Part shown: positions 14,046-60,243 of the stretch, piece by piece
How positions within the stretch are numbered: position 1 is the first letter of the stretch
How the letters are laid out: every line of letters begins with the position of its first letter
Origin: a virus
Lineage: Duplodnaviria > Heunggongvirae > Uroviricota > Caudoviricetes
IMG/VR virus record: IMGVR_UViG_3300015155_000017
Direction: 5' to 3' (one strand)
Length of the DNA stretch: 61,304 nt
Made by a program: the position numbers and the translations under genes
The notes under the pieces: model-generated
What the model saw: only the letters and a program-made list of their open reading frames with translations
What the model was told of the DNA's origin: nothing
Database searches by the model: none

Positions 14046-14062
14046 TGATGGTGATTCTATCG
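14046..14062 (-). promoter_or_regulatory. candidate late (Lpa-dependent) promoter element, AACAAATGACTAG
   Basis: Member of a motif family recurring upstream of late operons in this window. Confidence 0.35.
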
Positions 14063-14096
14063 CTAGTCATTTGTTGAATATTTAACTCAATAAAAG

Positions 14097-14113
14097 AAAA
14101 TTATTAGTGCAAT
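14097..14113 (-). promoter_or_regulatory. C1 operator-like variant (ATTGCACTAATAATTTT)
   Basis: One or two mismatches to consensus; lies in a divergent promoter region. Confidence 0.35.
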
Positions 14114-14170
14114 TTTGATTGTGAAATGTATCATTCTGCCCTTAAGTAGGTTCTTCACGAGGAAACAAAA

Positions 14171-14416
14171 TTGGCAGAACGTGTTGATGATGCAGAGCTG
14201 AGCATGAATCAATTAGAAGCTCTCAAAGACATGGCCATCGATAACATCAGAAAGCAGGCACAGGTCGTGAGCCAGGTATTTACAGGGAAGTGTCGTTACT
14301 GCAATGAACCGATCGAATCAGGCATCTATTGTGACGCTGAGTGTGCGCAATGGCACAGGGAAGAGCAGGCTGCAAAACAGCGTAAATATGGCATGCGACC
14401 GGCAGGATTTGACTGA
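14171..14416 (+). CDS. C4 zinc-finger protein, TraR/DksA-like (81 aa)
   Basis: CRYCNEPIESGIYCDAEC motif. Confidence 0.55.
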   Translation: MAERVDDAELSMNQLEALKDMAIDNIRKQAQVVSQVFTGKCRYCNEPIESGIYCDAECAQWHREEQAAKQRKYGMRPAGFD

Positions 14417-14418
14417 TT

Positions 14419-14997
14419 ATGTTGCGCTTTACTGAGGAAGAGTTTCAGGCTTTTAGTGAGCGTCGAAATAAGGGGCGGTCCAGGCCAAAAACCAAAAAGG
14501 ATCCATTCTTATCGCTTGCGCCGGTAAAAGAAATTTCTCCACATGCGAAGGCACTTGCAGCACTGGCAAAGAACCCAGACCTGCGCGACGGAAATTGCGA
14601 GCACTTCGAGCAGGTTTTCATTTTTGATTACTTCGAACGCAAGCACCCTGACATCTATGAGCTGTTGCATGCAACGCCTAACGGAGGGAAACGTTCAAAA
14701 GCAACCGCCGGGAAAATGAAGGCTGAAGGGCAGAAAAAAGGTTATCCGGACATGAGTCTCGATAAAGCATGCGGTATTTATCACGGCATGCGAATTGAGC
14801 TTAAAGAACCAAATGGTAAAGCCCCGACGAAAGAGCAGATCGCCTGGATGCGCAGGCTTAGAGAGGAAGGTTACTACGTCGTTCTTGCGTATGGTGCAGA
14901 ACAAGCGATAACCGCCATCCTGGAATACATAAGCCTTAAAAAGGGTGAGGCTATTGAGCATGTATTGAACGGCGACAAGTGGTTGTATGCTGCTTAA
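14419..14997 (+). CDS. VRR-NUC domain nuclease (192 aa)
   Basis: PNGG...GYPD...ELK motif typical of VRR-NUC PD-(D/E)xK nucleases. Confidence 0.65.
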   Translation: MLRFTEEEFQAFSERRNKGRSRPKTKKDPFLSLAPVKEISPHAKALAALAKNPDLRDGNCEHFEQVFIFDYFERKHPDIYELLHATPNGGKRSKATAGKMKAEGQKKGYPDMSLDKACGIYHGMRIELKEPNGKAPTKEQIAWMRRLREEGYYVVLAYGAEQAITAILEYISLKKGEAIEHVLNGDKWLYAA

Positions 14998-58816: not shown

Positions 58817-58817
58817 G

Positions 58818-59429
58818 TTAATTTCCTGCTTTCAGTTGCTTAAGACGACGTTTGAGTTCGCCATTCCGTGCCTTTTCGTTATTGAGTCGGCCCGTCTCCT
58901 TATCCAGCTTCGCCCGCAAATCAGTGATCTGCTGTTGATTGAAAGACACCGAATTCTGCGCGGACTTATAAGCGGCAACCACCTGAGCATTCCGCTGTTT
59001 TGCTTCTTGCAGGCGCTGAAAGTTGGATTTAACTGCCGGTTTCTTGTCTACCGGATTGGCAACACGCTTCGCTTTGGCGATCAGTGATTTCTGGAATTTT
59101 GCGGAGTTTTTGCGGGCCGCCTGTCCCATGACGGTACCAAGCGTCTTGATATCCGGCGACTGAGCGTTAGGAATAGCTTTTCCATTCAGCTTCACAGACG
59201 ATATATCGCCAGTATCGTTTACCTGTATGGCAAGAATTTGTCCGTCGTTAAGAACCAGCTTTGCGGTTTTAACTTTAACGCCATCTTTCGTTGTTGCGCG
59301 GTTGCTGGAGTCAACCTCAATTACCGTAACACCGGTTTTATTGATCGCCGCGATAAGGGATTTCAGCCCCTTTTCATTAACCTGGTCAAAATCGACCGTT
59401 GCATACTTATTTTTCGTCATCTGACACAT
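58818..59429 (-). CDS. hdf: Hdf, homolog of a DarA fragment (203 aa)
   Basis: LNDGQILAIQVND...AARKNSAKFQKSL parallels DarA LSDGQTISILFHS...AEKNSAKFQRAQ. Confidence 0.7.
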   Translation of the reverse strand: MCQMTKNKYATVDFDQVNEKGLKSLIAAINKTGVTVIEVDSSNRATTKDGVKVKTAKLVLNDGQILAIQVNDTGDISSVKLNGKAIPNAQSPDIKTLGTVMGQAARKNSAKFQKSLIAKAKRVANPVDKKPAVKSNFQRLQEAKQRNAQVVAAYKSAQNSVSFNQQQITDLRAKLDKETGRLNNEKARNGELKRRLKQLKAGN

Positions 59430-59850
59430 CCTGTGCGAGATTTATTACGTAACTTCTGCGGATTTGCTGAGTAACAGGGAAAATCCGATACAACGGGTTA
59501 ATGAACGAGTCGCCATGCGTAACCATGACGTTGAAATGCCACAGTCGCTCTCCTTTACCCATATATTCAGTGGGTATGTACAACCATTCACTGTTTTCGC
59601 CCTGTTCAGCCGACGTCAGACAACGTTGTTCACCTTCAATCACTGTCGTCGGCTTCTGAACATCGCGGATCCAATATCTGACCGTTGCGCCGCGCAAAAA
59701 CGGGAATTTAGACCGGTACTTGAACGGCACCCGGATGAAACCCGGTTTAATTTCCACATCACCAAGTTCTAAATGCGTGATGTCCTTGCGTTTTAGCAAA
59801 TAGCGATCGGCTAAGGCTAACGCAAGAACGCATACACCCCAGCCAATCAT
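59407..59850 (-). CDS. lydB: putative antiholin (147 aa)
   Basis: N-terminal TM segment; follows lydA. Confidence 0.55.
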   Translation of the reverse strand: MIGWGVCVLALALADRYLLKRKDITHLELGDVEIKPGFIRVPFKYRSKFPFLRGATVRYWIRDVQKPTTVIEGEQRCLTSAEQGENSEWLYIPTEYMGKGERLWHFNVMVTHGDSFINPLYRIFPVTQQIRRSYVINLAQDVSDDEK

Positions 59851-60176
59851 TTCCCGCCTCCCTTTTTCACCAAACTTGTAAGAACATTCAGAATGCTATC
59901 GATATTCACTCGTTTCATCCCTGAAATCACCTCATGACCGTTATTGCTGGCTATCGTTACCATTAAGTACGTAATTGATAACTCCCAGCCCTCGTGTTGC
60001 CCCAATAGGTACGCCACCGCGCCAGCTGTCACTGCAACAAAGATCTCCGTAACCAATCCCAACAAATTGCCAGACTGGCGACCGTCTCGGACATCCATCA
60101 GGAACGTGCCTATCCCACCAATTACTGAAAGCAGGAGCGCAATAGCAACTGGAGCTAATTCCTGTGTGTCAAGCAC
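59847..60176 (-). CDS. lydA: holin (109 aa)
   Basis: Multi-TM small protein at head of dar operon. Confidence 0.65.
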   Translation of the reverse strand: MLDTQELAPVAIALLLSVIGGIGTFLMDVRDGRQSGNLLGLVTEIFVAVTAGAVAYLLGQHEGWELSITYLMVTIASNNGHEVISGMKRVNIDSILNVLTSLVKKGGGK

Positions 60177-60230
60177 AAGTTCCCTCCTACGTTGTCAGGA
60201 GGTAATGGTATGCAAAGTAACTTCTCAACC

Positions 60231-60243
60231 GGTCATTTGTTGC
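60231..60243 (-). promoter_or_regulatory. candidate late promoter element (GCAACAAATGACC on minus strand) upstream of lydA
   Basis: Motif family member, ~55 nt upstream of the lydA start. Confidence 0.3.

What the first reader, a model, noticed from the sequence alone, without database searches (positions are those of the whole stretch)
14046..60243. Recurring AACAA(A/G)TGAC(T) motif upstream of late operons
A related sequence sits 20-100 nt upstream, in the coding orientation, of six operons expected to be late: the structural operon at 14024 (AACAAATGACTAG), pacA (TTGACATGTGACT), mat (TGACAAGTGACT), prt (AACAAGTGACTAGTG), lyz (AACAAGTGATT) and lydA (AACAAATGACC). None overlaps a C1 operator. 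This looks like the recognition element for the late activator Lpa.
Basis: partly seen in the sequence, partly recalled or inferred. Interest (0 to 1): 0.45.

Follow-up and report, generated by a model that had tools for sequence, protein, structure and literature searches.

The report
Known phage P1 late promoters
The recurring motif is the already described "-22 box" of the late promoters of phage P1, which the phage activator Lpa switches on together with host protein SspA; five of the six sites are annotated boxes and the sixth is a look-alike 18 bp upstream of the real one.

Summary
The window is a P1-like phage-plasmid, about 99% identical to P1 over most of its length. None overlaps a C1 operator.

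Five of them coincide base for base with the "-22 region" of late promoters annotated in the P1 reference genome AF234172: LP26, LPpac, LPmat, LPpro and LPlyz.

The sixth (lydA, 60231-60241) is not the annotated box. The real LPdar box, AAGTTACTT, lies 18 bp downstream at 60215-60223.

The full element is AC + a 9-bp imperfect palindrome (AAGTGACTT) + 4 bp + TAnnnT, with no -35. In this form it occurs 5 times against 0.22 expected. It is also the conserved island upstream of the homologous operons in the divergent Cronobacter phage JK004.

The window encodes Lpa (PF25716). Published work states that P1 has 11 late promoters carrying this 9-bp repeat as the Lpa site, with host SspA as co-activator.

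Minor extras: an unannotated look-alike inside gene 7, a strongly conserved 5' AC flank, and loss of LPhot.

The parts
14054..14074 (-). LP26 late promoter: AC flank (14073-14074), -22 box AAATGACTA (14064-14072), spacer gcga, -10 TAGAAT (14054-14059). It sits 29 nt before the gene 26 start.
   Evidence: Matches AF234172 'late promoter LP26' 78485-78503 with one spacer substitution. The box is conserved in JK004 while the flanks diverge.
14064..14082 (+). LPpmgL: a divergent late promoter that uses the same box read on the other strand (TAGTCATTT), with -10 AATATT.
   Evidence: Exact match to AF234172 'late promoter LPpmgL' 78495-78513.
30758..30778 (+). LPpac: AC + ATGTGACTT + tcgt + TACCCT, 36 nt before the pacA start.
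   Evidence: Exact match to AF234172 LPpac 90475-90493. Conserved block in JK004.
37762..37782 (+). LPmat: AC + AAGTGACTT + cagt + CAGAAT, 19 nt before the mat start. It shares its -10 with sigma-70 promoter Pmat, whose perfect TTGACA lies 19 bp upstream.
   Evidence: Exact match to AF234172 LPmat 2678-2696. -35 check. Box conserved in JK004.
47244..47264 (+). LPpro: AC + AAGTGACTA + gtgt + TAAATT, 42 nt before the prt start.
   Evidence: Exact match to AF234172 LPpro 17251-17269. Conserved in JK004.
50965..50985 (-). LPlyz: AC + AAGTGATTT + gcat + TATCCT, 87 nt before the lyz start.
   Evidence: Exact match to AF234172 LPlyz 20969-20987. The box AACAAG(T/C)GATTTG is the only conserved island in the JK004 alignment.
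60205..60223 (-). LPdar, the true late promoter of the lydA-darA operon: AAGTTACTT + tgca + TACCAT, 28 nt before the lydA start.
   Evidence: Exact match to AF234172 LPdar 31212-31230 and to the '-22 signal' and -10 annotated in AJ000741. Invariant in P1, P7, 813R1 and Ro157c2.
60231..60241 (-). It is a look-alike lying 18 bp upstream (box start to box start) of the LPdar box. No TAnnnT follows at the 4-bp spacing (AGAAGT instead).
   Evidence: Not annotated as a box in AF234172, AJ000741 or P7. Not conserved in P7, 813R1, Ro157c2 or JK004.
30276..30728 (+). lpa, the late promoter activator gene.
   Evidence: 98.7% identical to P1 Lpa. Pfam PF25716 BPP1_LPA, E 1.3e-56.
30189..30205 (+). C1 operator Olpa upstream of lpa. 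It ties late-promoter activation to release from C1 repression.
   Evidence: Exact match to the AF234172 Olpa sequence.
12349..12370 (-). Unannotated site with the full late-promoter architecture (aac AAGTGACTG gtga TAACCT), inside gene 7 at about codons 15-23. Its status is unresolved.
   Evidence: Found by the composite scan. Identical in P1 and partly kept in JK004. Absent from the Pantoea alvi P1-like element.

Best explanation
These are the Lpa-dependent late promoters of a P1-type phage. Each consists of a 9-bp imperfect palindrome (consensus AAGTGACTT, usually preceded by AC) centred near -22, a non-conserved 4-bp spacer, and a -10 hexamer TAnnnT. There is no -35 element.

Proposed sequence of events:
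- After C1 repression is lifted, the early gene lpa (30276-30728, behind operator Olpa) is expressed.
- Lpa recognises the -22 box.
- Together with the host RNA-polymerase-associated protein SspA, Lpa recruits the sigma-70 holoenzyme to promoters it cannot use alone.
- This switches on the packaging (pacA/B), head (prt/pro, mat), tail/baseplate (26-25-7-24-6-5), lysis (lyz; lydA/B) and dar operons.

Shown here: sequence identity with the annotated P1 promoters, the architecture, the statistical and positional enrichment, conservation in a divergent relative, and the presence of lpa.

Taken from the literature and not testable here: Lpa and SspA dependence, Lpa-DNA contact, and the transcription start sites.
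For: - Window identity: 99% identical to P1 AF234172 over 1-20111, and 94-98% over the other homologous blocks.
- Exact coincidence of seven window sites with annotated LP26, LPpmgL, LPpac, LPmat, LPpro, LPlyz and LPdar.
- Composite architecture: 5 hits against 0.22 expected. Every hit with at most 1 box mismatch except one lies 19-87 nt upstream of a late operon.
- No -35: six of seven promoters match TTGACA at no more than 3 of 6 positions at 15-19 bp spacing, which is the background level.
- Cronobacter phage JK004 (Lpa 67% identical; other proteins mostly 50-87%) has the same box + N4 + TAnnnT upstream of its R, 23, 26, pacA, prt and lyz homologues. The box is the conserved block in pairwise promoter alignments.
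- lpa is present: PF25716, E 1.3e-56.
[quoted passage not shown] Lpa is described as a sequence-specific DNA-binding activator working through SspA and RNAP, and SspA does not bind late-promoter DNA (PMC1891329 citing Hansen et al. 2003). Late genes depend on Lpa and SspA (PMC8198154 and PMC8201110).
Against: - Nothing in the window contradicts this reading.
- The mechanism of recognition is not uniformly described. One paper calls Lpa 'an RNA polymerase binding factor' (PMC8198154).
- There is no solved structure of Lpa or of any sequence relative.
- The primary papers (Lehnherr et al. 1991/1992, Hansen et al. 2003, Lobocka et al. 2004) could not be read here.
- The LPmat and LPpmgL -10 hexamers deviate from TAnnnT.
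Confidence: 0.9

Rival explanations
1. The box is not bound by free Lpa. Instead it is read by RNA polymerase holoenzyme that Lpa and SspA have remodelled, as in sigma appropriation, so the motif would be a promoter element of a modified polymerase rather than an activator operator.
For: [quoted passage not shown] The box sits only 4 bp from the -10 hexamer, inside the polymerase footprint. The strong 5' AC flank makes the element asymmetric, which is unexpected for a simple symmetric dimer site.
Against: PMC1891329 summarises Hansen et al. 2003 as showing that Lpa is a sequence-specific DNA-binding protein, with SspA bridging it to RNAP. PMC10695390 calls the repeat the Lpa-binding site. The palindromic core, and its use in both orientations at LP26/LPpmgL, fit a DNA-bound dimer.
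Confidence: 0.2
2. The lydA string AACAAATGACC (60231-60241) is a second, auxiliary Lpa site that cooperates with the LPdar box 18 bp downstream.
For: It matches the AC + AAATGAC part of the LP26 and LPsit boxes. It lies on the same strand, 18 bp (box start to box start) upstream of the LPdar box.
Against: It is not followed by a -10 at the 4-bp spacing (AGAAGT). It is not annotated in AF234172, AJ000741 or P7. It is replaced by unrelated sequence in P7, 813R1, Ro157c2 and JK004, while the LPdar box and -10 stay invariant in the three Punavirus genomes. About 4.5 matches to the degenerate motif are expected by chance in the window.
Confidence: 0.06
3. The motif is a chance recurrence, or a displaced sigma-70 -35-like element (TGAC resembles TTGACA), with no dedicated activator.
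For: The raw count of the degenerate motif is not above chance. Two sites contain TTGACA or TGACA.
Against: The positional and architectural enrichment is strong. The TGAC core is only 6-8 bp from the -10 hexamer, far from the 16-18 bp that sigma-70 needs. The box is conserved at homologous positions in JK004 despite diverged flanks. Lpa and SspA dependence is published.
Confidence: 0.02

Closest known systems
Bacteriophage P1 late promoters (LPmat, LPpro, LPlyz, LPdar, LPs, LPsit, LP23, LP26, LPpmgL, LPhot, LPpac), as annotated in GenBank AF234172 / NC_005856
   Same: Seven window sites are the same promoters at the same map positions, identical in sequence apart from one spacer base in LP26. 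The activator gene lpa is the same.
   Different: The window's variant lacks LPhot, because the region upstream of hot is diverged. LPs, LPsit and LP23 lie outside the window.
Late promoters of the divergent P1-like Cronobacter phage JK004 (MZ188976; unannotated)
   Same: Same AC + box + N4 + TAnnnT upstream of the R, 23, 26, pacA, prt and lyz homologues. Its Lpa is 67% identical.
   Different: Individual boxes differ by 1-2 bases. The lydA box is weak (AAAGCACTT). There are extra composite hits upstream of ssb and pmgN/O.
Phage D6 late regulatory motif (MF356679; Lpa 31% identical)
   Same: An Lpa homologue precedes pacA. A short motif recurs 40-70 nt upstream of the lydA, R, prt and pmgB homologues and of orf16.
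   Different: The motif is different (AAATCACAnACT...), and the P1 composite pattern gives no hit upstream of any of these operons in the 46 kb of D6 scanned. This suggests that activator and box have co-diverged. It was seen by eye and not tested statistically.
Other activator-dependent phage promoters lacking a -35: T4 middle promoters (MotA box with AsiA), Mu late promoters (C protein), P2/P4 late promoters (Ogr/Delta). From my own knowledge; not tested here.
   Same: A host sigma-70 holoenzyme uses a good -10 and no -35, and a phage activator site replaces the -35.
   Different: The P1 box is much closer to the -10 (centre about -22, against about -30 for the MotA box and -55 for the Ogr sites). 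It also needs the host protein SspA as co-activator. The proteins are unrelated.
Francisella PigR with the MglA-SspA complex at virulence promoters
   Same: An SspA-family protein on RNAP serves as the contact for a DNA-bound activator. The P1 Lpa/SspA case is cited as the precedent (PMC1891329).
   Different: Different organism, activator and DNA element. This is an analogy of mechanism only.

Membership tests
P1 Lpa-dependent late promoter | 9-bp imperfect inverted repeat (consensus AAGTGACTT) centred about -22 | tested here: met
Boxes with 0-2 mismatches at LP26, LPpac, LPmat, LPpro, LPlyz and LPdar.
P1 Lpa-dependent late promoter | -10 hexamer TAnnnT exactly 4 bp downstream of the box | tested here: met
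Met at LP26, LPpac, LPpro, LPlyz and LPdar. LPmat has CAGAAT and LPpmgL has AATATT, as in P1 itself.
P1 Lpa-dependent late promoter | No sigma-70 -35 hexamer at functional spacing | tested here: met
   The best TTGACA match is 2-3 of 6 at 15-19 bp for six of seven promoters, equal to the window background. LPmat overlaps the sigma-70 promoter Pmat.
P1 Lpa-dependent late promoter | Positional homology with a late promoter annotated in the P1 genome | tested here: met
   Exact or one-mismatch matches to AF234172 features, at the corresponding gene junctions.
P1 Lpa-dependent late promoter | The cognate activator gene lpa is present in the same genome | tested here: met
   Window 30276-30728: 98.7% identical to P1 Lpa, and PF25716 with E 1.3e-56.
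P1 Lpa-dependent late promoter | Conservation of the box in diverged relatives that encode Lpa | tested here: met
   JK004 alignments for the 26, pacA, mat, prt and lyz promoters. LPdar is invariant in P7, 813R1 and Ro157c2.
P1 Lpa-dependent late promoter | Transcription starts downstream of the -10, and only in the presence of Lpa and SspA | not testable with these tools
   Rests on the literature only (PMC10695390, PMC1891329, PMC8198154).
P1 Lpa-dependent late promoter | Direct sequence-specific binding of Lpa to the box | not testable with these tools
   Stated in secondary sources. No structure of Lpa or of a relative is in the PDB. The primary papers are not held.

The most novel reading that the evidence does not exclude
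The functional element may be larger and more asymmetric than the annotated 9-bp palindrome. The two bases 5' of the box (AC; A in 9/10 and C in 9/10 of the ten 4-bp-spaced P1 late promoters, 1.4-1.7 bits each) carry more information than box positions 5 and 9, and they have no symmetric partner on the 3' side. In addition, the genome may hold a twelfth, unannotated Lpa-dependent promoter inside gene 7 (12349-12370, minus strand) that boosts the distal tail genes 24-6-5.
Probability: 0.2. Interest if true: 0.2.

Novelty: already known. Interest (0 to 1): 0.07.

Why it matters
It matters little beyond correct annotation, because the element, its activator and its role in the early-to-late switch of P1 were described decades ago and are annotated in the reference genome.

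The practical value is threefold:
- The late promoters of this P1 variant can be annotated with confidence: seven are present and LPhot is lost.
- The lydA promoter should be placed at 60205-60223, not at the look-alike.
- The AC-extended pattern plus N4 + TAnnnT is a specific search pattern for late promoters in P1-like phage-plasmids.

Tried and rejected
- Raw motif counting. The degenerate ACAWRTGAY is not enriched (7 against 4.5 expected), so count alone cannot support the finding. Positional and architectural tests were needed.
- Other exact AACAARTGA hits at 29320(+) in pdcB and 60679(+) in cin. Neither has the box-plus-10 architecture, so both are treated as chance.
- Composite hit at 38732-38750(+), antisense inside the DUF2971 ORF. 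It has 2 mismatches, within the chance expectation of 2.2, and was rejected.
- Gene-7 internal site. It was followed into JK004, where it is partly kept, and into a Pantoea alvi P1-like contig, where it is absent. This is inconclusive. The IMG/VR scan returned only 99-100% identical copies and was uninformative.
- LPhot. No match within 4 substitutions, and the region upstream of hot has diverged.
- The 9-mer TATAATGTA, which looked intergenic-specific. It is not enriched, and its sites are heterogeneous: lox, a LexA box and operators.
- Primary papers (Lobocka 2004, PMC523184; Lehnherr 1991, PMC208978) are not held.
- Lpa has no sequence relative in the PDB and no NCBIfam model.
- Structure prediction and large protein searches were not run, because they would not change the verdict.
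Full report
**Identity of the window.** A 3-kb probe around the first site matches phage P1 and its relatives at 98.7-98.9%. A whole-window comparison with the P1 reference AF234172 shows these blocks:
- window 1-20111 = P1 64436-84542 (99%)
- window 27821-35086 = P1 87536-94800
- window 35087-38433 = P1 1-3347
- window 39745-51736 = P1 9750-21740
- window 53236-61304 = P1 24246-32311

Mosaic replacements lie at 20112-26476, 38434-39744 and 51737-52420. Gene positions were transferred by tblastn.

**The observation.** All C1 operators were placed by homology. The nearest operator-to-box gaps are 24, 27 and 32 bp, so nothing overlaps.

On statistics, a loose version of the motif is not over-represented by count (ACAWRTGAY: 7 against 4.5 expected). 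The tighter AACAARTGA is over-represented (7 against 1.67, 0 of 100 shuffles). Six of the seven ACAWRTGAY hits fall in the 2.7% of strand-specific positions that are non-coding and within 110 nt upstream of a same-strand start (post hoc). An unbiased 9-mer scan of the 33 intergenic segments recovers ACAAGTGAC as the first word family after the C1-operator words and a few AT-rich/-10-like words (7 segments against 0.91 expected).

**What the sites are.** AF234172 annotates 11 'late promoters'. Ten have a 9-bp '-22 region', a 4-bp spacer and a -10 hexamer; LPhot has a 9-bp spacer. Seven of them are present in the window at the homologous junctions:

| Promoter | Window coordinates | Strand |
|---|---|---|
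| LP26 | 14054-14072 | - |
| LPpmgL (same box, other strand) | 14064-14082 | + |
| LPpac | 30760-30778 | + |
| LPmat | 37764-37782 | + |
| LPpro | 47246-47264 | + |
| LPlyz | 50965-50983 | - |
| LPdar | 60205-60223 | - |

The composite pattern (AAGTGACTT with at most 1 mismatch, then N4, then TAnnnT) occurs 5 times against 0.22 expected. Relaxing it slightly returns the six 4-bp-spaced promoters plus only two other sites. Six of the seven promoters have no better match to a -35 hexamer than random sequence. LPmat overlaps the sigma-70 promoter Pmat.

**The sixth site is mis-registered.** The box annotated in AF234172, in the original darA-operon record AJ000741 and in P7 is AAGTTACTT, 18 bp further downstream, followed by tgca and TACCAT.

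In an alignment of the window, P1, P7, 813R1 and Ro157c2, everything from just upstream of the annotated box through the lydA start is invariant. It is not conserved in JK004 either, and no -10 follows it at the right spacing. It is best read as one of the few chance matches expected.

**Conservation.** Cronobacter phage JK004 encodes an Lpa that is 67% identical, and most of its P1-homologous proteins are 50-87% identical. The same composite pattern is found upstream of its R, 23, 26, pacA, prt and lyz homologues. In pairwise alignments of the 26, pacA, mat and lyz upstream regions, the box, with its AC flank, is a clear conserved island; the prt upstream region is well conserved throughout.

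Phage D6, whose Lpa is only 31% identical, lacks the P1 pattern upstream of any of these operons in the 46 kb scanned. Instead it shows a different recurrent word (AAATCACAnACT...) upstream of its lydA, R, prt and pmgB homologues and of orf16. This fits co-divergence of activator and site, but I did not test it statistically.

**Mechanism.** The window carries lpa (PF25716, E 1.3e-56) behind the C1 operator Olpa. Held papers make these statements:
- Lpa is a sequence-specific DNA-binding activator that works through the RNAP-associated host protein SspA, which does not itself bind late-promoter DNA (PMC1891329 citing Hansen et al. 2003).
- Late genes depend on Lpa and SspA.

One source instead calls Lpa an RNA-polymerase-binding factor. 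There is no solved structure. Whether Lpa binds the box on its own or only within the polymerase complex therefore remains a reasonable rival at the level of mechanism.

**Small additions beyond the annotation.**
- In the ten 4-bp-spaced P1 late promoters, the two bases 5' of the annotated box are A (9/10) and C (9/10). They carry 1.44 and 1.65 bits, more than box positions 5 and 9, and have no symmetric counterpart 3' of the box.
- A site with the full architecture, aac AAGTGACTG gtga TAACCT, lies inside gene 7 (12349-12370, minus strand). It is identical in P1, partly retained in JK004 and absent from a Pantoea alvi P1-like element. Its status is open.
- LPhot is missing from this variant.

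**Verdict.** However, the element is the textbook P1 late promoter, already annotated in the reference genome. One of the six sites should be moved by 18 bp. Interest is low.

Noticed in passing
window 12349-12370 (-): Unannotated sequence with the complete late-promoter architecture (aac AAGTGACTG gtga TAACCT), inside gene 7 at about codons 15-23. It is identical in P1. JK004 keeps cac AAATGACCG gtga TACGCT at the same codons. A Pantoea alvi P1-like contig (L095) does not have it.
   Followed up: partly
window 27380-27493, upstream of hot: The P1 late promoter LPhot (AAGTTACTT + 9 bp + AATAAT) has no counterpart. The region upstream of hot is diverged in this variant, and hot itself is only 84% identical in DNA.
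   Followed up: partly
window late promoters, and P1 (L001-L006): The two bases 5' of the annotated 9-bp box are almost invariant AC (1.44 and 1.65 bits), which makes the element asymmetric. This flank is not part of the '-22 region' annotated in AF234172.
   Followed up: yes
L098 (phage D6, MF356679), upstream of D6_30, D6_36, D6_22, D6_16 and D6_41: D6, whose Lpa is 31% identical, shows a different recurring word (AAATCACA[A/T/C]ACT...) 40-70 nt upstream of late operons in place of the P1 box. This may reflect co-divergence of activator and site.
   Followed up: partly
window 47161-47177 (+): C1-operator-like sequence ATTGCCCTAATGTATTT (2 mismatches from Olpa) inside the 5' end of darB, about 70 bp upstream of the LPpro box. 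It is not annotated as an operator in AF234172.
   Followed up: no
window 51565-52410 (+): A 281-aa ORF with a Thoeris anti-defence Tad2-like domain (PF11195, E 2.5e-22) lies in a 684-bp insertion between ssb and isaA. The insertion is absent from the P1 reference.
   Followed up: partly
window 38434-39744: The EcoP1 res-mod restriction-modification genes of P1 are replaced by 1.3 kb that carries a single 346-aa DUF2971 ORF (38652-39692, minus strand).
   Followed up: partly
window 20112-26476: A mosaic block of about 6.4 kb replaces the P1 pmgT region. Its ORFs include two Ead/Ea22-like proteins and a DUF551 protein. It resembles the equivalent regions of P7, SJ46 and RCS47 only in part (about 50% coverage).
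   Followed up: partly
L011/L012 (JK004): 83285-83303 (+) and 69127-69145 (-): Further composite late-promoter-like hits in JK004 upstream of ssb and of pmgN/pmgO. P1 has no annotated late promoter at either position.
   Followed up: no
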